A stretch of DNA of 64,000 bases from Eledone cirrhosa (taxonomy: Eukaryota). The translations under genes were made by a program, and so were the position numbers. Of the stretch, positions 1-53,396 are shown piece after piece; within the stretch, counting starts at the first letter, position 1; every line of letters begins with the position of its first letter. Under the pieces are notes generated by a model. That model saw only the letters and a program-made list of their open reading frames with translations. It searched no databases and was not told the DNA's origin. The stretch lies in assembly GCA_964016885.1 (NCBI GenBank), contig OZ024748.1:5952001-6016000 (forward strand), read 5' to 3'.

Positions 1-494
1 TCTTTTCTTCTATTTGTTGTTGTTGTCATTATTCTTGTTATTACTTTATTTGCTTCTGTCATTTTCTATCTCTTTTGCACTTGCTTCTCTCTTGTTTTTT
101 CTTTCCAACTTCCCCCTTTTACCATCCACCATTTTCTTATTTTCTTTCATACGTATTTGCTTTTCGTTCGTACATCTCCCTTATTTTAAACTTAGTTCAC
201 ATTCTGATATTTCAATATCTATGTTCAACTATGAGATCTTCACCATTCACATGGGGAAAAAATCTAGTGTACCAATATAGGTACGGGGCTGTAGGCAAAT
301 AACCTTTCTCTAAAATACATTTAGTAACGGTTCTTTACATTGTAAGTTCGAAATTCATCGATATCAACTTTCTTTTTCATTCATACGTGTGCCGATAAAC
401 TGAAATATCCAGCCAGTTACTCAGAAAGATTAAATCAATCACAGGCTTAATTACTTAATTAAAGAGTTTTGCATATGAACATGCAAACATAATT

Positions 495-680
495 GTTTCT
501 ACTTTTGGCACAAGGCCAGCAATTATCCCAGAGTATTACTGGTGCTTTGTTTTATCGACCCCGTAAGGATGAAAGGCAAAGTTAACCTCGGTGGGATTTG
601 AACTCAGACCGTAAAGCGGTGTAACTCTATGTCACAACTAATGGCGTCCGACCCTCTACCGATACTGAAAATTCAACGCA
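495..680 (-). mobile_element. tRNA-derived SINE, family 1 (central domain resembles the MetaSINE domain)
   Basis: The minus strand has B-box GAGTTCAAATC followed by GGTTAACTTTGCCTTTCATCCTTACGGGGTCGATAAAA and the 3' end GCTGGCCTTGTGCCAAAAGTAGAAAC. It aligns by eye to about 8 other copies in the window. The Meta-domain assignment is from memory. Confidence 0.85.
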
Positions 681-3713: not shown

Positions 3714-4192
3714 ATAAATATATATACTTGTGCTTCCATGTATATATGCATAGGCCTGAGGACATGTGTGCGTATGTGTGTGTTTATGTGCGTGTGTGTA
3801 TGAGCGGTAGTGACTGTTATTTTTTTTATTCCTTGATTGTTCTTATTTCCTTACGCTGAAATACATCCCAGACGTGTCTATTTTACTCTCATCTTTATAA
3901 TACAATATGGACGTCTATCCTAATAATAAAGAGACCCGCAACGGTTACCAAACTGCAGAATATTTCACATATTCGTGTTTTAATTAACTTTAATAATTTG
4001 AAATGTCGAGACTGTCTGCCTTGTTTTGTTATCAAAATTGAGCATTGATCCATTTATTTTGACTTAAATTTCGAGTATGTCTTTGACGGTTAGGAGTTAG
4101 GAGTACTAAATACCGAAGTAAAGTTTTGATATTCATTTATCAAAGCTAAAACATCAGACATCTTGCCTGATGTATGTCTCTATATATATATA

Positions 4193-4381
4193 AGTTTATC
4201 ACGGGTTCAATCTGGAGTAACCACAGTAAGTAAGGTACACAATACAAAGCAGAGTATAGATATTTAATATAGAAAAGGCTTCTATAAGACTAGAACTGTT
4301 TCATTCGGGAGAAATCTTCGGGAAGCCCTGATGATTTCTCCCGAATGAAACAGTTCTAGTCCCGTAGAAGCCTTTCTATAT

Positions 4382-4388
<7 letters not shown>
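4193..4388 (-). mobile_element. Penelope-like pLTR fold-back element, family A, in (TA)n
   Basis: A ~65-nt unique tail is followed by inverted arms ~4260-4317 and ~4333-4388. Homologous to 35505-35785. Contains CTGATGA (4328-4334) and GAAAC (4347-4351), but the helix I 5' strand is lost at the fold-back centre. Confidence 0.75.
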
Positions 4389-4418
<30 letters not shown>

Positions 4419-4639
4419 ATATATGTGTGAGTGTGTGTGTGTGTGTGTGTATTTCTATATTGGTATTAACTTATTAACTTATTATCTTGGTATAAACACA
4501 GGTGAAACAATGTAACGCCATGATGGATCATTTGCATTTGAAAAACCTTTCCCTGGAGACAATCCGCTACATCAAAAACGAATTATATTAGTTTACTTAC
4601 ATATATTATTATACACACACAAATGTATATATAAAAATA

Positions 4640-5130: not shown

Positions 5131-5404
5131 TATAAACGGAATAAATGAAACGAAATTTCATTTCTCACGCTTCGTACGGCTGTTACTTAAATATAAGTAT
5201 GTATACGTACATACATACATGTATACAGACGTACAGTAGTATGTATATATATATATACATACATGCACACATATATATATATGTATGTATGGATTGACCG
5301 AACATTTATTATAATGCTCGGTGTGTTTGTAAACAAACATCCCGAATTAAGCCGTACAGTGTCTAGCAACCATCGTTGCTCATTTGTTCAACACTGACAA
5401 AGGA

Positions 5405-5447
5405 ACGATGTACTAGTTTCAAGCTTAATAGCTATCGTCAGCAAAGT
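5405..5447 (-). ncRNA. Type I hammerhead ribozyme motif (mirror copy, weak helix I)
   Basis: Minus strand: ACTTTG CTGACGA T AGCT ATTA AGCT T GAAAC TA GTA CATCGT. Confidence 0.55.
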
Positions 5448-5685
5448 ATACCTTCCTTCCAGATGATTGAACGTCCGAAAGTATATACTTTACTTATGCA
5501 TATTAAGGGCTGAGCAGCCTAATTTGCATATCGAGTGAGTTAATCGGCCGGGTGTGTTAATCACTAAGAGTGAGAATTGAAATTTCGTTTCATTTTTTTC
5601 CGTTTATCGTTTTCGCTGCTCAGCCGTTAATATACATAAGGAAAGTATATACTTTCAGACGTTCAATCATCTGGCAGGAAGGTAT

Positions 5686-5728
5686 ACGTTGCTGACGATA
5701 GCTATTAAGCTTGAAACTAGTACATCGT
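5686..5728 (+). ncRNA. Type I minimal hammerhead ribozyme motif
   Basis: ACGTTG CTGACGA T AGCT ATTA AGCT T GAAAC TA GTA CATCGT. Helix I pairs 5 of 6, helix II has 4 bp, helix III is the palindrome ACTAGT, and the cleavage triplet is GUA. Confidence 0.7.
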
Positions 5729-5937
5729 TCCTTTGTCAGTGTTGAACAAATGAGCAACGATGGTTGCTAGACACTGTACGGCTTAATTCGGGATGTTTGT
5801 TTACAAACACACCGAGCATTATAATAAATGTTCGGTGAATCCATACGTACATATATATATGTGTGCATGTATGTATATATATATATATATATACATACTA
5901 CTGTACGTCTGTATACATATATGTATGTACGTATACA

Positions 5938-5987
<50 letters not shown>

Positions 5988-5989
<2 letters not shown>

Positions 5990-6272
5990 AAGATCGGAAT
6001 TAAGAATATTCCGCAGTTCACTGTAATAATAATAATAGTATTAGCTCAAAGAAGAATAGAGAATTTTCTTCTGAGCTCAGATGCAAATATATTACACAAA
6101 GAGAAGTGTGTTACACTTTAATTTAAAACTCTAATTCAGAGATTTGATTCTGACTTAGATTTTTCTATTTAATTGCTAAACCTGTAGATATTGTTCTCTA
6201 TACAGTAACGGTAAAACTCACTTGTAAAAATTCTTTACACACATCTCACTATGTAACACACTTCTCTTTGTG

Positions 6273-6280
<8 letters not shown>
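5988..6280. mobile_element. Tail-plus-inverted-arm insert in (TA)n (no hammerhead seen)
   Basis: A ~29-bp inverted repeat, ATATATTACACAAAGAGAAGTGTGTTACA (6087-6115) and its complement (6252-6280), follows a ~100-nt unique segment. (TA)n on both sides. Confidence 0.5.
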
Positions 6281-6856: not shown

Positions 6857-6858
<2 letters not shown>

Positions 6859-6974
6859 AAAAGAGTCAGGACACCGACGGCTGAGCTCCGGCCATTTCGA
6901 CAGCTAGATACCCTAAATATTGAGTAATCTGGTGCATTATGGTCCACCTGGTATATTACCACACCCTCTTTGTT
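6857..6974 (+). mobile_element. Penelope-like short element, family B (diverged copy)
   Basis: Reverse-complement homolog of 31303-31427; (TA)n on both sides. Confidence 0.7.
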
Positions 6975-7890: not shown

Positions 7891-7893
<3 letters not shown>

Positions 7894-8087
7894 GTAGAAC
7901 ACTGGAAGGTAATATCCGTAGTGGTAGAGCACTCAGTCCATGGGACGAGTTAGATAGAAGTGGTTACGCAACAGTTAGTTCACAATACCGAGAAAAATTG
8001 TTCCGTATAACCAAGCCCATTACGCGGTGAGGATCCGCTAAGGTGAAACAATTCTTCTCGGTATGGTGAACTAACTGTTGTGTAACC

Positions 8088-8093
<6 letters not shown>
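7891..8093 (-). mobile_element. Tail-plus-fold-back element between (TA)n and (TC)n
   Basis: Inverted arms 7956-8002 and 8047-8093 follow a 65-nt unique segment containing AGCACTCA. A decayed hammerhead-like stretch TGAGGA...GAAAC...GTA lies at the centre and right arm. Confidence 0.6.
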
Positions 8094-8221: not shown

Positions 8222-8574
8222 AAGTGTGTGTATTTATATAAATGTAGATAAACCCGTAGAGCAAATGTTTGAAATTAGCCCAGATTAAAAGGTTCCTCAA
8301 ATAATTTCTGTTTTCACCATAAAGCAGATCATCTGAAACTGAGTAATATCAATCTGTGGGTGCGAAGGTGAGGAAGTAGACAGTGGTGATATCAGTGAAA
8401 TTTTAGTGGATACTATAGATGGTAAATAACGGAGAGCTGAAGACAGAAACAATTATGAAATACTGAGCTATATATATATATAGCCAGACCGGAGGTACCA
8501 GGGCCTGTATCCAGATTATCAGTAAACACAAATGAAAATATTTGTTACACTTCCAGTATATAGTTGATTATAAT

Positions 8575-8758
8575 GTTTCTATTTTGGCACAAGGCCAGCA
8601 ATTATCCCAGTGCATTACTGGTACCTTATTTTATCGACCCCGTAAGAATGAAAGGCAAAGTTAACCTCGGCGAGATTTGAACTCAGATCATAAAGGGTCG
8701 TAACTCTATGCTGCAAAGCATGGCGTCCGACCCTCTACCGACACTGCTAATCCACCGC
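8575..8758 (-). mobile_element. tRNA-derived SINE family 1, full length with TSD
   Basis: Minus strand starts G(G)CGGTGGATTAGCAGTGTCGG (A-box-like) and has B-box GAGTTCAAATC. Flanked by the direct repeat CCAGTATATAGTTGAT (8553-8568 and 8759-8774). Confidence 0.92.
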
Positions 8759-22240: not shown

Positions 22241-22710
22241 TTATTCCCTTTGCCGCTGCCCCTCTTCCATTAAATGTAATGGGTGTAATATATGAAGCTC
22301 GATTGCTCCATACAGAGCTTTACTTCTTCTTGTACTCCATGTCTGTTCCTTCCTGGCATGAGATTTCAAATGGCTGTGAAACACTCGCCCGCAAATAATA
22401 CAATGATGTCTCATCTCGATCTTGTTTCTACTTTGGGTTTGCTTATTGTGTATGTTTAGATGTCGCTTCAGTCTACCTGATTTGCATATTATCTGACATT
22501 GGAACGGATTCTCTACAACGTAGTGTGAATGGACTTTACCATCATGTGCTCGTTGGTGAGCATTCAAGCCAGAATTCGAAAGGTACACTGGATAAGATTC
22601 ATCATTGTTACTGTTTGTCTCATTCTTTCGTAATTTTCTTCTCAGTTTAGCATGTTTTACCCTCTCCATTTCAAATTCTTTTACTCCATCACAAATGGCA
22701 TTTCTTTGTA
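22241..22710 (-). mobile_element. 3' fragment of an RTE-clade-like non-LTR retrotransposon ORF
   Basis: RNAICDGVKEFEMERVKHAKLRRKLRK...SNSGLNAHQRAH...FQCQIICKSGRLKRHLNIH...CIICGRVFHSHLKSH resembles, from memory, the post-RT C-terminus of RTE LINEs (FE..R...KR..RK plus C2H2-like fingers). The fingers carry deletions. Confidence 0.7.
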
Positions 22711-24168
22711 CTGCAGTCAACTAAAATGAAAATAAGTATTAGCGGCTGCTGCCAATTAACTCTTTAAGATTTTTTATATTTTCAGTCACCGGAACGCCCA
22801 TAAAACGGGAATATGTTTGGTATTGATGAGTTTTCGAGCTTGGGGCAGACTTTAAATTATTCTTATCAGCAGTTGAGTTTATTTTACTCCCATTATAACT
22901 AAGTACATTATTTACAAGAAAAGAATAACAATTTATTTTAATCACCGTAATTAACACTACTCTGTATATTTCTGATGTTGAAAACATTTGAAATAATCAT
23001 ATGCACCCATTTACTATATAATTACATGTTCGACTCCCCTTTTAAATGGATTATAAATTAATCATCTTTTTGTTAAACTAACATTTTTGATAGTTAGCTA
23101 CTTACACAAAGGAGAGTAGGTATACTGCAGGTCTATATTTCCGCTGATGATGACTGAGAAACCCGAAACGCTTGTTGTTCCCTTCTTTACTCGGCCAGTG
23201 AATATCTAAATATTATCCAAGTCCTAATATTATTATCATAATCACCGTATTTATCGCATCTGATACTTCATCTGTCGTTTAAAATATCGTATATAAGAAT
23301 CAATCTCTCCTGTCCCGAAGGGCATGTGATGATCTTAGGCACTGCCTATTTCTCTAAACCAACAAAGTAAAATTAAGGTTCTGTGATTAGTGTAGAGCAG
23401 GATATATGCTAGAGATACAAATTACTGTGATACCGTTTCAAGTCTCATTGGTAATCTTATTTCCAGCAAAGGTTAAGTACTTAAAGTATATCCCTAGGAC
23501 ATATATCAAACCTATTTATCCTTCTTATAAATGTAAACAAAACGGCACAAAGAAAAATCTTGATAGTTAAATTACGCCCATAGAGAAGAGAAAACAATGG
23601 CTTTTGCAGGTTTTTAAAGGACCTTTGTATTTCGCATAACAAAGATTGCCGACCAAAACACGTGGGGTCAACTCCTATAATAAGTTAATCAACATTTGAA
23701 ATATTTAAGACTCCTTATTATAAGTGGTTTCTATAATTACATAACGTTTAACATTTTATATTCCCTCTCCTCGAGATTATTATTATTTCGTATTTTTTTA
23801 ATCTCTTCCCTAGTTATTATCGTTCTTTGTGTGGTAAAGTTAAAACGGGATTGAAATCAGACGCTTTGATTCGCTCCGCTGATAAACCCGACAATAACAA
23901 TAAAACCTTTATAAAAGTAATTAGAATTTCTATATTATATCCCGATTTTAAATTGTTAATCACTTTAGCACATATACACATATGCATTCTAACGCATGTG
24001 CATTCGTCCAGGAATTATTTATACACGTACAATAAATTAGATTTGTCGATATATATCCGATGTTCCCGCGTGTATATATGCACGCATGCGTTTTACATAT
24101 TTTGAGCGCAAATAATAACATAAATGCAATTAGAAAATAGAAAAAATATATATATACCAACACACACT

Positions 24169-28005: not shown

Positions 28006-28258
28006 CATGTATTGCTGTCGACCTGTCAGCTTCCATGGATTATTATTTCTAACGCTTCAATCAATACTGATTAACCCTAAACCTACGCTCCGCTAAAGGC
28101 CTTCTGCAAAACCAATGAACTATTCTAACCTTTCATACCAACCGAGATATCCCAAGCCAAGTTTATGTGGATCTTGAGAAACTAAATACTCGAATCAGTT
28201 GCAGGATACGCCAACAAACTTGTGGGTTCTTATCATTGTTGTTGTCGTTCTTATAATT

Positions 28259-28430
28259 CACTGTATCGTTAGAGTGTGTGACGATATGCTTTGTAGCATA
28301 GTTACGTCCCTTTACGGTCTGTGTTCAAATGTCGTGGAGATTAACTTTCCCTTTCCTCCTTACGGGGTCGATAAAATAAAGTACCAGTAATGTACTGGAT
28401 AATTGCTGGCCTTGTGCCAAAAGTAGAAAC
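28259..28430 (+). mobile_element. SINE family 1
   Basis: GTTCAAAT B-box, CCTTACGGGGTCGATAAAATAAAGTACCAGT and the family 3' end. Confidence 0.85.
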
Positions 28431-30078
28431 AACTATGTTAGAGGGATAACAAATTTGTTTCTATACACAAATCAGGGTGGATTCAGTTAGAAACTGATTA
28501 GACTATTACTCAACAGAGTATTCAATACTTGGGTTGGTAAAGTGTGTTTATATTATAAATAGCCATGACCCGACAGCTAAGCTGTTTCCGTTTCAACAGC
28601 TTGTTCCAGATTCTACAACTAGCTATTGAAACACCATATCTATGTAGGAGTGTGTGTGTATATATACACTTTTTAATCAAATATCTAAAATATGTGAAAA
28701 CAATATTTTACATTCTAAATTGTATTGAGATGAGTATAGGTTATTTCATTCACCCCAATTGACTTCATTTGTTTATTCATTGAGCTTACAAAAGAAAAAA
28801 CAAAAAAAAAACAATATGAGGTTTGGTGAAGTCGAGAAATGAACCCATTCAGAACTGCTCCGAAAATTGCGTAGACAAAAGTATATATTTTAAAAGACAA
28901 TTTTTTCTTCCACCATATTTGTCAACAAACCGTTCTCTTCAACTTCGCTAAACTATCGATCTGTTAATATGTTTGTTTATGATTTGTGTTCATAAGACAG
29001 TTTTCCCGCTCTTTTCCAATGACTGCTTCTTAAATCTTTTGAATAAAAATGTTAAATTTTTTCAACGACATACAACAACATAGAACTAATGTCGACGGTG
29101 CTTCAGCTCCGCTGTGTAATGAGGCGAACTCTGATTACAATAAAAACATTCTTTTAAAAAGAAGAAATGAAAAATAATTAAATAAAGATAAAATAAAATA
29201 AAAAAAGGAAAATAATTGAAAAAAAAAAAAAATTACTAATTCTAATGAGAGAAATTTTCTGCTTTGTTGAGAGTGATACAAAAGAAGAATAGTTTAGATG
29301 TATTAAAATATTATTATCATTATCATTAATATTAATATTATTATTATCATTTTAATACATCCAATTAAGCTAATACATCAGTGATAAAAGGATTTTAAAT
29401 TTCAATTTTTCGGTTCAACTATCAAGGTTGTTTATATTTATATTTATATTTATATTTATAATTCTCTATTTTGTTTTTTGTTTGTTTAAAAAGATTTTCT
29501 GTTATTTCTTGAAATTTTTATCGTTTTCTTCTCCTTCTTCTCTTGGTTTTTTTCTTCTTCTTCATATTCTGATGTTATTTGCTTTGAAATATCTTCTTTC
29601 GTTTCCTGTATCAACAAATTCTTACTCACATTCTTCTCATTCAGAATCGTCGTCGTCGTCGTCGTCGTCGTCTTCTTCTTCTTCTTCTTCTTCTTCTTCT
29701 TCTTCTTCTTCTTCTTCTTCTTCTTCTTCTTCTTCTTCTTCTTCTTCTTCTTCTTCTTCTTCTTCTTCTTCTTCTTCTTCTTCTTCTTCTTCTTCTTCTT
29801 CTTCTTCTTCTTCTTCTTCTTCTTCTTCTATTCCCTCCTCGCATATCATTATTTTCATTATTTTCCTAATATTTTTAATAATTGCTTTTTCAGGTTGTTG
29901 TCAATATTGTTGTAGATGTTGTTATTATCAACATCATCCACATCATCATCATCTTTATATTAATTGTTTTTTATGAATCACATTATCAACATTACACTTA
30001 TCCCTCAAGTGGTAATAAGGACAATAACAAGTTCTACTACAATTTATATCACTGTCCATCACATACACAAAAGCACAC

Positions 30079-30483: not shown

Positions 30484-30515
<32 letters not shown>

Positions 30516-30653
30516 AAGGTTAAACAAGGTTCAATGAATAAATCAAAGAATGAGTTTTACAAAGGATTGGAAGCACTCAACAGTATTGGTTTTCGCGAGT
30601 TATTAATATTAATTAAAAATATTAACAAATATAGAACTTCTTGTGATCAAGTA

Positions 30654-30720
30654 TATTTTATTATACATATTTCAGAGGTACTGAACTAACTTCAACAGTA
30701 CATCCTCATCAGATAAAATA
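30654..30720 (-). ncRNA. Type I hammerhead ribozyme motif
   Basis: Minus strand: TATTTTAT CTGATGA GGATGTACTG TTGAAGTTAGTT CAGTACCTCT GAAA TATGTA TA ATAAAATA. Helix I has 8 bp and helix II pairs 9 of 10. Confidence 0.8.
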
Positions 30721-30803
30721 AGATGATGCATGACATACCCTGACATAGTAGATAGTTAAGATCCAGTCATATCTACTATGTCAGGCTATGTCATGCATCA
30801 TCT

Positions 30804-30873
30804 TATTTTATCTGATGAGGACGACGTACTGTTGAAGTTAGCTCAGTACCTCTGAAATATGTATAATAAAATA
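30804..30873 (+). ncRNA. Type I hammerhead ribozyme motif
   Basis: TATTTTAT CTGATGA GGACGACGTACTG...CAGTACCTCT GAAA TATGTA TA ATAAAATA. Confidence 0.8.
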
Positions 30874-30990
30874 TACTTGATCACAAGAAGTTCTATTTTT
30901 GTTAATATTTTGAATTTATATATATATATAAGTTTGCATGACTCTATGACAAAGTTGGCCATACGGCGTAGGGTCTGACAATATATATAT

Positions 30991-31901: not shown

Positions 31902-32070
31902 TATCAAATTTAATAAAATGTTCCATTCGAAAGAAATCATGATTTATTTTGAATGAAAGAGTTCTACTCCTGTAGAAGTAATTTCTATACTAAATTTGAT
32001 GTTTACTCTCTACTAATGTATTGAGTACCATACATACTGTAGTTACCCGGATTAAATCCAGGACTCACAT
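31902..32070 (+). mobile_element. Diverged family A copy
   Basis: TGAATGAAAGAGTTCTACTCCTGTAGAAG...GTATTGAGTACC...GTTACCCGGATT matches the reverse complement of the family A arm and tail; a short inverted arm lies upstream. Confidence 0.6.
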
Positions 32071-32096
32071 GTATATATATATAATTCTTATTATCA

Positions 32097-32298: not shown

Positions 32299-32470
32299 TT
32301 GACAGTATCGGTAGAGGGTCGGACGCCATGCTTTGCAGCAAAGAGTTACGGCCCTTTATGGTCTGACTTCAAATCTCGCTTAGGTTAACTTTGCCTTTCA
32401 TCCTTACAGAGTCGATAAAATAAAGTACCAGTAATACACTGGGATATTTGCTGACCTTGTGAAAAGTAGT
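32299..32470 (+). mobile_element. SINE family 1 (second of tandem pair)
   Basis: CAGTATCGGTAGAGGGTCGGACGCCATGC...GCCTTTCATCCTTAC...GTACCAGT. Confidence 0.88.
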
Positions 32471-32657
32471 AGTAATCATTATTACATAGAAACAAGTTTA
32501 ATCTTATATTGAGAACATTTTGGCAGTAACTAGAACCTTTTTCTTTTTCATTTCTTGTAAAACTGCAAACAAAATATTTGAAAATTTCAATAAATCTCTG
32601 AAGTAAATTTCCCTACCAAATGTCCACAAACACACTCAACACAACCATAAATATTTA

Positions 32658-33574: not shown

Positions 33575-33731
33575 AAAAAAAATCTATACAGACACATTAA
33601 AGCGATTATCTCTTAATTAACCGAACATCCAAGAACAAGTTCAAGTCTTTTCGACTAAAGTTCCTGGTCTGCTTTCGATACTAAGATGAACTCAATCAAA
33701 GCCTAATTAATAAACTAATTATATCTAATAC

Positions 33732-33931
33732 NNNNNNNNNNNNNNNNNNNNNNNNNNNNNNNNNNNNNNNNNNNNNNNNNNNNNNNNNNNNNNNNNNNNN
33801 NNNNNNNNNNNNNNNNNNNNNNNNNNNNNNNNNNNNNNNNNNNNNNNNNNNNNNNNNNNNNNNNNNNNNNNNNNNNNNNNNNNNNNNNNNNNNNNNNNNN
33901 NNNNNNNNNNNNNNNNNNNNNNNNNNNNNNN
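33732..33931. other. Assembly gap (200 N)
   Basis: Run of N, adjoining a (TA)n tract. Confidence 0.99.
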
Positions 33932-35504: not shown

Positions 35505-35785
35505 AGTTTATCCCGTGTTCAATCGGGGGGTAACCAGAGTAAATAAGGTGCTCAATACATAGCAGAGTATAAATATTTAATATAGAAAGGCTTCTACAGG
35601 ACTAGAAATGTTTCATTCGGTAGAAATCATCAGGAAGCAGCTGTCCAAGTAATATGGTGGTTTTTTATATCTCCTACCACAAGAAAAGATATAAATACAA
35701 CCATTTTACTTGGACAGCTGCATCCTAATGATTTCTACTGAATGAAACAGTTCTCGTCCTGTAGAAGCCTTTCTATATTAAATAT
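35505..35785 (-). mobile_element. Penelope-like tail-plus-fold-back element, family A (longer copy)
   Basis: Tail 35505-35572, then arms 35573-35672 and 35687-35785; (TA)n on both sides; homologous to 4193-4388. Confidence 0.8.
35590..35638 (-). ncRNA. Type I hammerhead ribozyme motif
   Basis: Minus strand: GCTTC CTGATGA T TTC TACC GAA T GAAACA TTTCTAGTCC TGT A GAAGC. Helix I has 5 bp and the cleavage triplet is GUA. The mirror arm has CTAATGA (G5A). Confidence 0.7.
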
Positions 35786-35794
35786 ATATATATA

Positions 35795-35893
<99 letters not shown>

Positions 35894-35899
35894 GTTATA

Positions 35900-36622
35900 T
35901 AGTAAGGTGTATTATTGGTTGTGTAAAATGGTCCAATAACTTTATGTTAGCAATATTAAGTTCTCCACGCTTTTGTATATCTCCAATTCCATTCGAGGGA
36001 ACTAGATGATGTAAAACGGAGTATAAGTATCAAAATGAAAATCCGAAGGCAAGGTAAAATTCCAATCATTTAATCACGACACATGTTTCAATAAGAGATA
36101 GATCGATTGTGAAGCCATCAGTCTTCAAATTCTTGATATGAGGGAGAAAAAATAACGATGTTCTCTCACAGAATTCATTCCCTCATATGGAGACACACCA
36201 ATCAGTCAGAGACATGGCGACTGCTATTAGCTTTAGTTGAGATCATAAAAGTGTTCAGATTTCTATCGCTGCAAAAGACACTGGACATCAATCAAATCTG
36301 TAGGGATACAGTCACTCACAGTTAAAAGTGAGTGGGTACACACACACTCCACACCTACATACATCGGCTCGAGGTCAAAGAAAAATATATACATATATAT
36401 ACACACATTAACACAGTATTAAACCCGTGGGTGGGTACACACGTACTTTCACACACACCGAAGCGATGTCCGAGGAAAAAAAAAATATATAATAAAACAA
36501 ATATAATAAAACAAATATAAGAATGTACCAACACAGCACTCACCGAAAGTTAGTTCACAAAGCAACAGAAGCTATGTCGATCAAATCTCAATTTGACGAT
36601 GTAAATTGGAAATATTGGGTTA
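35900..36622 (-). mobile_element. Family C element copy with the hammerhead 5' core deleted
   Basis: Reverse-complement homolog of 50227-50982 including the tail; deletions at ~36118 remove helix I and part of the core. Confidence 0.8.
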
Positions 36623-37049
36623 ACCAACGCTACACACATACACACACACACGCGCCCGCGCAAGTAAGTTCAGTTCAGTGTTCTGCTATACGTGTATAGA
36701 TCGAATTGTAACATCCATATCTTCAAGTGTTTGTTATGGTATATACATATCCGAATCGTCCCCCCCCCAAAAAAAAAGGGGGGGGGGGTTATATTTCCGG
36801 GTATATACACATCCATGTGAAGAGCAAGCAATCAGCTCATGTCGAACTCCGTGTGTACCGCTGTCCCGTTGAGAATCCGTGTCACCAAATCCGTGCGTGC
36901 AAGCAACTGCAATGTGGGCCGGCAAAGGGCTTCGTGTAGGGTTGGGTATTGGGTAAATGCGTCTGCAAGTGCGATTTCCCGTCACATGGGCCAATGAGCT
37001 TTTAAGATAGTTGTTTGAGTAGTGGAGGTGTGTTATCCAACACAGAAGG

Positions 37050-37260
37050 TGAAGAAAACACAGGACAGTAAAATCCAAAGGATGTGTGTAGGCCCATTAA
37101 TGGTGTGTCAGTATTATTGTTCAATCCGTAACAGTGAGTCTTCCATGGTTAGATAATCACGCATCAAAACCTGGTGTAGTGTTCAGTCGGTAGGAACGTG
37201 ACAGTCGTAATTGTGGGAGTTCAATGTCTAAAGGAAACGGGTACTGTGTGTAGAGCTATG
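37050..37260 (-). mobile_element. Possible decayed LINE C-terminal fragment (RTEX-like)
   Basis: My minus-strand translation gives LPQLRLSRSYRLN...LTVTD...WAYTHPLDF with stops. This is reminiscent of L.QLRSG...LN...LW..P LINE C-termini, but the match is weak. Confidence 0.3.
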
Positions 37261-37308
37261 TATAGAGAGCGTAATCGGACCTAACTAGAGAATGGGGGAG
37301 AGAAAGAG

Positions 37309-37380
<72 letters not shown>

Positions 37381-37712
37381 TTCTCTTTCTCTCCCTCATT
37401 CTTACGTGATAGTTCCGTCACTCATCAAATGCGAAAGCTTCAACTCATTTCAATTTCATCATCTTCTATACATCGGTCACAACAGATTCACAAACACACC
37501 GACACACATACGAACAGATGCACAGAGACAGGTGCACAATATTGTAACGAAATCACAATTACACACACACACACACGTATATATATATATATACATATAT
37601 ATTGATGAAAATAGTGCTCGATCTAGTGTAAGAAACGTAAGGTCTGATGACTGAACCACGGTTGCGATCACTCCACCATGCATTCTGCACCACCGCGCCC
37701 AGTGTGTGGAGA

Positions 37713-37758
37713 TGGTCATAACTGGACCTTGAAACCTAACGTAGTGGTTTACTTGTTC

Positions 37759-37816
<58 letters not shown>

Positions 37817-37862
37817 GAACAAGTAAACCACTACGTTAGGTTTCAAGGTCCAGTTATGACCA
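37713..37862. repeat. Perfect palindrome: two 50-bp arms around a (TA)n core
   Basis: TGGTCATAACTGGACCTTGAAACCTAACGTAGTGGTTTACTTGTTCTGAA (37713-37762) and its exact reverse complement (37813-37862). Confidence 0.92.
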
Positions 37863-37876
37863 CTTCCACAGATGAT
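37827..37876 (-). ncRNA. Variant or decayed type I hammerhead motif
   Basis: Minus strand: ATCAT CTGTGGA AGT GGTC ATAACTG GACC TT GAAAC CTAAC GTA GTGGT. Helix I has 5 bp with G-U pairs; the core has A6->U. Confidence 0.45.
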
Positions 37877-42405: not shown

Positions 42406-42407
<2 letters not shown>

Positions 42408-42580
42408 CGAAGGAAATGTGGTAAGGAACGAGGTGGACCATAACGCACCAAAGTACTCAATACTTAGGGTAGTAGAGTGGGTAATAGGAATGAGTAGGAC
42501 CCCGACGGCTGAGCTCAAGCCGTTTCGACGGCTAATTCTGGACTAAAAATCTTTTTTAGTCCAGAATTAGCCTACTCGTT

Positions 42581-42582
<2 letters not shown>
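42406..42582 (-). mobile_element. Penelope-like short element, family B (with long hairpin)
   Basis: Tail, then the hammerhead 3' half on the minus strand, a 20-bp hairpin (42530-42572) and a short inverted arm CCTACTCGTTCC; (TA)n on both sides. Confidence 0.75.
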
Positions 42583-42627
<45 letters not shown>

Positions 42628-42631
<4 letters not shown>

Positions 42632-42691
42632 ATAATAAATGTGAAGACTAAAATCCGAAGAGGGCTCGATAAATATTATATATATATATAG

Positions 42692-42729
<38 letters not shown>

Positions 42730-42775
42730 ATAATAAATGTGAAGACTAAAATCCGAAGAGGGCTCGATAAAGATT
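42628..42775 (-). mobile_element. Two tandem ~47-bp tail-only inserts separated by (TA)n
   Basis: AGTAATAATAAATGTGAAGACTAAAATCCGAAGAGGGCTCGATAAA occurs twice; its reverse complement is at ~49353-49398. Confidence 0.7.
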
Positions 42776-49701: not shown

Positions 49702-49793
<92 letters not shown>

Positions 49794-49835
49794 AAATGAA
49801 AATCTGAAGGCAAGGTAAAATTCCAATATTTTTAA

Positions 49836-49909
49836 TCACGACACATGTTTCAATAAGAGATAGATCGATCGTAAAGCCATGATCAATTATCATTGATCTC
49901 ATCAGGTGA
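49836..49909 (-). ncRNA. Type I hammerhead ribozyme motif (mirror copy)
   Basis: Minus strand: TCAC CTGATGA GATCAATGATAATTGATC...ATT GAAAC ATGT GTC GTGA. Confidence 0.65.
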
Positions 49910-50740
49910 AAATGAATTGTCTTCAAATTCTTGATATGAGGGAGAAAATTAGCAATGTTCACTCACAGAGTTTATTCCCTCATATGGAGATCCAGAAGTC
50001 AGAAATACGGCGACTGCTATCAGCTTCAGTTAGGGTCATAAAACTGTCAAATCTCCATAGCTGCAAAGGACGCTGGACATTAATCAGATCTGTAGAAATA
50101 CAGTCGGTCACAGTTAATGTCAGTGGGTACACACACACTCAACACCCATACACACCGGCTCGAGGTCAAAGAAAAACAAATATATATATATACATATCAA
50201 CACAGCATCAAACCTGTAGAACTATATAACCCAATATTTCCAATTTACATCATCAAATTGAGATTTGACCAATGTAGCATTTGTTGTTTTGTAAACGAAC
50301 TTTCGGTGAATGGTGTGTTGGTATATTCTTATTCTTATATTTATTGTTTTTTTCTATGACATCGCTTCGGTGTGTGTGTGAGAGTGCGTGTGTACCCACT
50401 CACACTAATTGTGACCTTCTATAGTTCTACATGTTTGATGCTGTGTTGATATGTGTATATATATATATATTTTTTTTTTCTTTGACCTCAGCCGGTGTGT
50501 ATGGGTGTTGAGTGTGTGTGTACCCACTGACATTAACTGTGACCGACTGTATTTCTACAGATCTGATTAATGTCCAGCGTCCTTTGCAGCTATGGAGATT
50601 TGACAGTTTTATTGCCCTAACTGAAGCTGATAGCAGTCGCCGTTTTTCTGACTTCTGGATCTTCATATGAGGGAATAAACTCTGTGAGTGAACATTGCTA
50701 ATTTTCTCCCTCATATCAAGAATTTGAAGACAATTCATTT

Positions 50741-50814
50741 TCACCTGATGAGATCAGTGATAATTGATCATGGCTTTGCGATCGATCTATCTCTTATTGA
50801 AACATGTGTCGTGA
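50741..50814 (+). ncRNA. Type I hammerhead ribozyme motif with enlarged domain II
   Basis: TCAC CTGATGA [47 nt] GAAAC ATGT GTC GTGA; canonical GUC cleavage triplet and 4-bp helix I. Confidence 0.65.
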
Positions 50815-50979
50815 TTAAAATGATTGGAATTTTACCTTGCCTTCATTTTGATACTTATACTCCGTTTTACAACATCTAGCTGTTCCCTTGAATAGAATTG
50901 GAGATATACAAATCCGTGGAGAACTTAATATTGCTAACATAAATTTATTGGACCGTTTTACACAACCAATAATACACCT

Positions 50980-51017
<38 letters not shown>

Positions 51018-53197: not shown

Positions 53198-53396
53198 AGG
53201 TGGTAGAAGGTCGGACGTCATGCTTTGCAGCATAGAGTTATAGCCCTTTACGATATGAGTTCATCTCCCTTCATGGTTAACTTAGTCTTTCATCCTTACA
53301 GGGCCAATAAAATAAAGTACCAGTCACGCACTGGGATCGATTTAATCGATTTTCCTCTCCACCAAAATTACTGGCCTTGTACCTATATAAGAAACT
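53198..53396 (+). mobile_element. SINE family 1 with 18-bp TSD
   Basis: Flanked by ATTATTACAGCCACCATA (53180-53197 and 53397-53414). Confidence 0.9.

What the first reader, a model, noticed from the sequence alone, without database searches (positions are those of the whole stretch)
4193..4388. Tail/arm asymmetry: the inverted copy stops at the tail boundary
Seen in A (4193, 35505), F (30513), B (42406), C (49790), 7891 and 5988. One side is arm plus a 65-130 nt unique tail; the inverted arm lacks the tail and runs straight into the microsatellite. The two family A copies share this boundary but fold back at different depths (~58 vs ~100 bp arms). Inference: a defined 3' priming end plus a second, defined cDNA start, with variable 5' truncation. 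Random palindrome formation or a TIR MITE would not give this pattern.
Basis: partly seen in the sequence, partly recalled or inferred. Interest (0 to 1): 0.7.

Follow-up and report, generated by a model that had tools for sequence, protein, structure and literature searches.

The report
Penelope retroelement ends with one-sided tails
These lopsided hairpin-like repeats sitting in TA runs are short copies of the ends of Penelope-type jumping genes, whose one-sided 'tail' is a known signature; most copies stop about 30 letters after a TATA box, likely because the element's RNA begins there.

Summary
The asymmetry is real: in 60 of 66 fold-back insertions sampled genome-wide only one arm carries the tail, and copy ends fall at two fixed points per family. 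[quoted passage not shown] Family A's repeat runs into the start of an ORF, and an 82-86% identical sister subfamily flanks an intact 713-aa reverse transcriptase/GIY-YIG protein with the Hydra-clade motifs; families C and F join such ORFs too. One refinement: fold depth is not freely variable. Inner ends pile up 30 nt downstream of a TATA box in families A, F and B, pointing to run-off from the RNA's 5' end (inferred; no RNA data). The tail-less arm often holds sequence missing from the tailed arm, which favours two separately primed cDNAs over a self-primed hairpin. The scan noted this system before on other DNA of this genome.

The parts
4193..4262 (-). Family A tail: the part of the pLTR between the two copy end points; in ORF-bearing copies it continues about 50 nt further to the start codon
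   Evidence: 89.6% to L254 over q1-135
4263..4327 (-). Tail-bearing arm of the pLTR; ends at q135, the predicted RNA start (30 nt after a TATA box present in long copies); its ribozyme core is mutated
4328..4388 (+). Inverted tail-less arm; carries the hammerhead-like core (starts 4328, cleavage triplet 4359-4361) but has lost the 5' strand of stem I at the junction
4389..4424 (.). (TA)n target tract; a shorter TA run lies on the other side (about 4182-4192)
35505..35785 (-). Second family A insertion, same outer ends, deeper fold (to q168); hammerhead motif at 35633-35600 on the minus strand
30513..30918 (-). Family F insertion: 93-96 nt tail, hammerhead motif in both arms; 3' end of a Hydra-type element (94.6% to L180)
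49791..50985 (+). Family C insertion: inverted tail-less arm 49791-50229, direct copy with tail ending 50985; hammerhead motif in both arms; 3' end of a Hydra-type element (96% to L171)
35891..37290 (-). Longer, unfolded, 5'-truncated copy related to family C (78-81%)
42407..42583 (-). Family B insertion: tail, arm, short internally deleted inverted arm; ribozyme core degenerate; no ORF linked
7891..8093 (-). Family D insertion: about 60 nt tail, arms with a hammerhead-like core; tail-less end runs into (CT)n; no ORF linked
5988..6276 (-). Family E insertion: about 100 nt tail plus 29 nt of arm, joined to a longer tail-less inverted arm; no ORF linked
5132..5949 (.). Further fold-back of the same kind (family G), hammerhead motif in both arms

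Best explanation
These are short insertions of Penelope-like retroelements in TA runs (families A, C and F join Hydra-type reverse transcriptase/endonuclease genes), and the one-sided tail likely arises because the two ends of the cut target each prime a cDNA at a different fixed site on the element's RNA. Shown: two fixed outer ends per family; tail on one side only; the repeat is the pLTR of an RT plus GIY-YIG element; a hammerhead-like motif lies just 5' of the tail. Inferred: the GIY-YIG domain cuts (TA)n on both strands; one end primes at the distal site (arm plus tail), the other at the proximal site (arm without tail); the two cDNAs are joined head to head. Also inferred: most short copies are made from the 5' leader of the ORF mRNA, which would start 30 nt after a TATA box in the pLTR, so both cDNAs run off after about 135 nt (A), 140 nt (B) or 264 nt (F); longer copies would come from read-through RNA of tandem elements.
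For: L283 is the same layout around a whole element: (TA)19, inverted tail-less pLTR (1.64 kb, 98.8% to the 3' copy), junction, truncated direct pLTR, ORF region, pLTR plus tail, (TA)n; L093 shows it for an element of another clade. L254 and L275 (88-90% to the 4193 copy) run from the tail into the ORF start. L280, L281 and L285 hold an intact 713-aa ORF: 98.3% profile match over 529 columns to proteins with Pfam RT and GIY-YIG hits; model pLDDT 93.8, best fold matches telomerase RT; Hydra motifs present. C and F run upstream into such ORFs. Hammerhead descriptor: 9 hits in the window against 0.45 in shuffles, 7 in arms of A, C, F, G. Two-cDNA test 10 against 2 of 24. Inner ends: A 88 of 129 arms at q126-138, 1 at q139-151, predicted start q135; F mode q263, predicted q264, 23 of 54 within -22/+3 and 3 in the next 26 nt; B 19 of 24 incidental arms within 3 nt of the predicted start. 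In vitro precedent: both strands cleaved and extended, two RT start sites bounding the tail (PMC11167929).
Against: No RNA or biochemical data for these families. The intact ORF belongs to a sister subfamily (82-86%); the two closest ORF-linked copies read here are broken or truncated. B, D and E were not linked to an ORF. Pfam alone does not recognise the 713-aa protein (GIY-YIG E = 0.025) and Rfam gives only a sub-threshold hammerhead hit for C and none for A. The two-cDNA test is modest (p = 0.039) and later deletions at palindrome centres could mimic it; 12 of 24 fold-backs are near-symmetric and fit self-priming equally well. The TATA rule was found after the fact in A; B's box is a variant; family D does not fit the nearest TATA-like site; the D. 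virilis Penelope promoter is TATA-less (PMC2377424, passages). Samples are the best 30-40 of 500-2600 candidates per search, so they favour young copies.
Confidence: 0.88

Rival explanations
1. Same elements, but the inverted arm is made by self-priming: one cDNA folds back on itself and is recopied until a fixed stop at the tail boundary.
For: Short palindromes or microhomologies at many junctions; 12 of 24 fold-backs are near-symmetric; self-priming was proposed for PLEs in PMC3846280 (passages).
Against: In 10 of 24 the inverted arm holds 10-67 nt that the tailed arm lacks, which a copy of that arm cannot; tail-less ends also occur on unfolded direct copies, such as the 3' end of L280 and many family C copies.
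Confidence: 0.2
2. The pile-up of inner ends is a polymerase stop at the ribozyme structure, not the RNA's 5' end.
For: In family A the pile-up coincides with the 5' strand of hammerhead stem I (q130-135).
Against: In family F it lies about 65 nt upstream of the core yet still 30 nt after a TATA box; such a box would fall in a given 5-nt window with chance about 0.01-0.02.
Confidence: 0.2
3. Non-autonomous TIR DNA transposons (Tc1/mariner-type MITEs) with TA target duplications.
For: Short, abundant, palindromic, flanked by TA.
Against: The termini are not inverted repeats of each other in 60 of 66 pairs; lengths run from 100 to over 1500 nt; the repeat continues into an RT gene.
Confidence: 0.01
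4. Random palindromes from DNA repair or assembly errors at (TA)n.
For: TA tracts are unstable and hard to assemble; post-insertion deletion probably shapes some junctions.
Against: Ends recur at family-specific positions across chromosomes; arms differ by 4-15% substitutions in the window copies; junctions differ between copies.
Confidence: 0.02

Closest known systems
Hydra clade of C-terminal EN+ Penelope-like elements (Craig et al. 2021, PMC8557442; e.g. Hydra-1_Obim, Penelope-13_HM)
   Same: Single ORF of about 700 aa with RT then GIY-YIG; RWK-like, DKT and CxCX5C motifs; no conserved CCHH; (TA)n targets; hammerhead with the ctgatgat...tgaa pattern listed in file S2; an inverted 5'-truncated copy noted for Penelope-13_HM.
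   Different: Long 3' UTRs here (about 2.2 kb in F, about 3 kb in the A sister subfamily) against elements generally under 3 kb; tails of 60-140 nt against the 30-40 nt quoted for PLEs; no tree with the published sequences was built.
PLE tail and internal RT initiation in Poseidon of Anolis carolinensis (Frangieh et al. 2024, PMC11167929)
   Same: Two fixed ends bounding a tail, downstream of a hammerhead; AT-rich targets; both strands extended.
   Different: There the start sites lie inside the ORF; in family A both ends lie upstream of the start codon. Different clade; shown in vitro there, inferred here.
Penelope elements of Adineta vaga (PMC3846280)
   Same: Head-to-head inverted pLTR, optional tail on one pLTR, TATA box about 20 bp before an initiator-like site in the pLTR.
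   Different: That paper explains the inversion by self-priming and reports target duplications; here duplications cannot be read within (TA)n and asymmetric arms favour two cDNAs.
Naiad PLEs (PMC8557442)
   Same: (TA)n targets, inverted copies, tails, high copy number in invertebrates.
   Different: Naiads have an N-terminal endonuclease and lack canonical hammerheads; A, C and F have a C-terminal endonuclease.

Membership tests
EN+ Penelope-like elements | Telomerase-related RT and GIY-YIG endonuclease in one ORF | tested here: met
   713-aa ORF next to the A-like pLTR; profile match 98.3%; fold matches to TERT rank 1-5; C and F join RT and EN fragments on the sense strand
EN+ Penelope-like elements | pLTR: the same repeat at the 3' end and in front of the ORF | tested here: met
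   L280, L281, L283; L254, L275
EN+ Penelope-like elements | Inverted 5'-truncated copy and one-sided tail | tested here: met
   60 of 66 pairs; L283
EN+ Penelope-like elements | Hammerhead motif in the pLTR | tested here: met
   Own descriptor, 9 hits against 0.45 shuffled, in A, C, F, G arms and in L283; Rfam sub-threshold or absent; self-cleavage not tested
EN+ Penelope-like elements | Link to an RT ORF for families B, D (7891) and E (5988) | tested here: inconclusive
   No sense-strand ORF link seen within about 1.5 kb of 30 B and 25 E loci; D not searched for separately
Hydra clade | C-terminal GIY-YIG, RWK-like motif, DKT, CxCX5C linker, late CxxC | tested here: met
   Read in the L280 protein; 101, 107, 102 and 103 of 107 aligned relatives; CxCX5C also in C and F
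Hydra clade | CCHH zinc finger absent | tested here: met
Hydra clade | Insertion into (TA)n | tested here: met
Hydra clade | Placement in the clade on an RT tree with published members | not tested
   Published sequences were not fetched
Naiad clade | Endonuclease N-terminal to RT | tested here: not met
   EN is C-terminal in A, C, F
Tc1/mariner MITE | Symmetric terminal inverted repeats and uniform length | tested here: not met
Tc1/mariner MITE | TA target-site duplication | not testable with these tools
   Flanks are (TA)n, so a duplication cannot be told apart

The most novel reading that the evidence does not exclude
The thousands of ~200-nt lopsided palindromes are run-off copies of the 5' leader of the element's own mRNA: a TATA promoter in the pLTR sets the RNA start, the RT starts at two sites just upstream of its own start codon, and both ends of a double-strand cut in (TA)n are extended separately. 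The genome would then record, for each family, the RNA start and both RT start sites, and the short copies would be promoterless dead ends that outnumber productive ones.
Probability: 0.55. Interest if true: 0.45.

Novelty: new member of a known kind. Interest (0 to 1): 0.27.

Why it matters
The pattern itself is known. Its value is as a large natural data set on an open point: how PLEs build their inverted, tailed ends is still unresolved (PMC8557442 calls for an in vitro system; PMC11167929 gives the first one, for another clade). Here an intact Hydra-type ORF, both copy end points and a predicted RNA start are all defined, so the two-primer model can be tested against self-priming. Practically, these short palindromes are easily misfiled as MITEs or microRNA hairpins.

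Tried and rejected
Whole-window Rfam scan: the 150 rows shown were hairpin and microsatellite matches, none a hammerhead. Targeted Rfam: Hammerhead_1 at 12.8 bits (cut-off 34) for C, nothing for A. No PLE ORF in the window. GIY-YIG search gave many PLEs (150 scored of 10597 candidates), but none of the 20 regions fetched had a window family as its own pLTR; window-family copies there were separate insertions. Walking family A upstream from its inner end failed, because long copies fade into a degenerate TA/CA tract; I first suspected a non-autonomous 440-nt element and dropped this when the tail was found to run into an ORF and the tract appeared in the 3' UTR of L283. I first took the RT fragments for Naiad and rejected this on domain order. 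Single-sequence folding was unusable (pLDDT 31.7); PDB sequence searches found nothing meaningful; the protein atlas gave no answer. Sequencing runs: no RNA holder listed, so no reads were laid. Literature searches for twin priming or an RNA-start explanation of short PLE palindromes returned no paper stating it; the library lacks most subscription journals, including the 2005-2006 PLE reviews, so this is weak.

Full report
1. Observation. The window is microsatellite-rich animal DNA from a 3.0-Gb assembly. At 4193-4388 about 67 unpaired bases are followed by a palindrome with arms of about 62-64 nt, between TA runs. The copy at 35505 has the same outer ends and arms of about 106-118 nt. The loci at 30513, 42407, 49791, 7891 and 5988 show the same layout with tails of about 60-140 nt. 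Positions below (q) count from the tail end of a natural reference copy.

2. Is it general? I gathered copies by genome searches; each DNA search scores only its best 40 of roughly 500-2600 candidates, so young copies are favoured. Outer ends are bimodal in all five families counted: A 68 of 132 at q1-5 and 53 at q62-72; F 24 and 17 of 44; C 12 and 22 of 36; B 24 and 19 of 48; D 6 and 8 of 16. Among fold-back pairs one arm only has the tail in A 30 of 34, F 10 of 10, C 1 of 2, B 15 of 16, D 4 of 4; two of the F arms scored as tail-less end further in than the boundary. In 30 A loci chosen only by a tail-end motif, 24 fold back and 1 scores as tailed on both sides (a rearranged copy); in 30 B loci, 24 fold back and none is tailed twice. 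Five family E loci read by eye show the same, one with both ends tail-less.

3. What the repeat is. Among the 30 pattern hits, one continued past the tail into non-TA sequence shared with L069; at that locus (L254) the whole pLTR and tail run into an ORF start about 50 nt later, broken by a stop. Searching with that stretch and fetching 12 regions gave intact 713-aa ORFs in L280, L281 and L285, flanked by a pLTR 82-86% identical to the 4193 copy. L283 is (TA)19, an inverted tail-less pLTR of 1.64 kb, a head-to-head junction, a truncated direct pLTR, the ORF region, a long 3' UTR, the pLTR with tail, and (TA)n: the finding's layout wrapped round a whole element. Pfam does not recognise the protein, but it has 1293 relatives at E <= 1e-10 among 7994 scored; their profile matches Pfam-confirmed RT/GIY-YIG proteins of this genome at 98.3% over 529 columns, and the model built from 107 sequences (pLDDT 93.8) has telomerase RTs as its five best fold matches. 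It carries the features listed for the Hydra clade in PMC8557442 (passages): RWK-like, DKT, CxCX5C, late CxxC, no conserved CCHH. Family C runs upstream into a CxCX5C linker, GIY-YIG and RT in L171, L174, L175; family F does so contiguously in L180. B, D and E were not linked to an ORF. A hammerhead descriptor of my own gives 9 hits in the window against 0.45 in 20 shuffles; 7 lie in arms of A, C, F and G, and their core pattern matches the Hydra hammerheads in file S2 of PMC8557442 (one part of the supplement read).

4. Mechanism. Known: PLE insertions often have an inverted 5'-truncated copy and a tail at one end (PMC8557442, PMC3846280, PMC8969392; passages); a purified Poseidon protein cuts and extends both target strands and starts RT at two internal sites that bound the tail, on uncleaved RNA (PMC11167929, parts 1-2 of 4 read); hammerheads lie in pLTRs (PMC4209133, part 1 of 4 read). 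Tested here: a self-primed hairpin cannot contain sequence absent from the first arm, yet the tail-less arm reaches at least 10 nt further 5' in 10 of 24 fold-backs and the reverse holds in 2 (p = 0.039). This favours two cDNAs, though later deletion could contribute and 12 cases are uninformative. Inner ends are not spread evenly: in A, 88 of 129 arms end at q126-138, 1 at q139-151, 11 beyond and 29 before (loci picked for the inner pLTR excluded); the 22 purely incidental arms show the same cliff, with none between q136 and q167. The long copy has one TATA box, and its first base plus 30 gives q135. In F the same rule predicts q264; the mode is q263 (8 of 54), with 23 arms within -22/+3 and 3 in the next 26 nt (F loci were picked on q1-248, which hides shorter copies but not the cliff). 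In B a variant box predicts the point within 3 nt of which 19 of 24 incidental arms end; the 45 arms from the B search mostly carry a few extra A's. D does not fit its nearest TATA-like site, with about six copies. I infer run-off from the 5' end of the pLTR-promoted mRNA; this is untested.

5. Comparison and novelty. Families A, C and F meet the tested features of EN+ PLEs and of the Hydra clade; a tree was not built. A Hydra element from an octopus with (TA)n preference is already listed; the host here is not named, and a cephalopod is only my guess from genome size. Naiad and MITE membership fail. The asymmetry and the two-start explanation are published; the families are new members. The TATA+30 rule was not found in three searches, which cover open-access text only; a pLTR TATA box is noted in PMC3846280, and the D. 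virilis promoter is TATA-less (PMC2377424, passages). PMC13282606 (passages) and the retrozyme preprint 10.64898/2026.07.22.740005 (abstract and outline only; supplements closed) add context only. Earlier notes of this scan describe the same system elsewhere in this genome; I had seen the pile-up of inner ends before reading them, but two of them prompted the tests. They are leads, not support.

6. Verdict. Real, well explained, known in kind. Identity as PLE ends about 0.95; two separately primed cDNAs about 0.7; RNA-start run-off about 0.6. Interest 0.27.

Noticed in passing
window 37640-37870: A repeat end with a hammerhead-like core faces its own inverted copy across (TA)26, tail to tail, the opposite of the usual head-to-head layout; L010 and L078 show shorter tail-to-tail cases.
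   Followed up: partly
   Followed up: no
window 31939-32083 and 6857-6973: An older family-A-related copy (about 77%) and a family-B-related copy with rearranged arms.
   Followed up: partly
L091, L093, L101, L277 (G000): The genome holds several other PLE lineages with long ORFs (Neptune/Nematis-like and Poseidon-like by recalled motifs); L093 shows the same inverted tail-less pLTR and a 35-nt tail.
   Followed up: partly
L262-L270, L273, L274 and further hits: About 30 near-identical scores for the A sister subfamily ORF start suggest a young, recently active family.
   Followed up: no
L101:7780-9900: Family G forms a tandem array of about 490-nt units, each with a hammerhead motif, resembling a retrozyme array.
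   Followed up: no
families A, B, D: Three unrelated families share a modal insertion length near 200 nt and a fold centre 132-144 nt from the tail end.
   Followed up: partly
window 481-679, 8570-8758, 28255-28439, 32303-32487, 53202-53337: A dispersed repeat of about 190 nt with at least seven copies in the window, probably a SINE.
   Followed up: no
window 42628-42775: Two tandem 49-nt repeat ends separated by TA runs; the same family recurs in many loci.
   Followed up: no
window 22241-22720 (-): A frame with zinc-finger-like C/H spacing, probably a decayed gene or repeat fragment; an assembly gap of N lies near 33730-33930.
   Followed up: no
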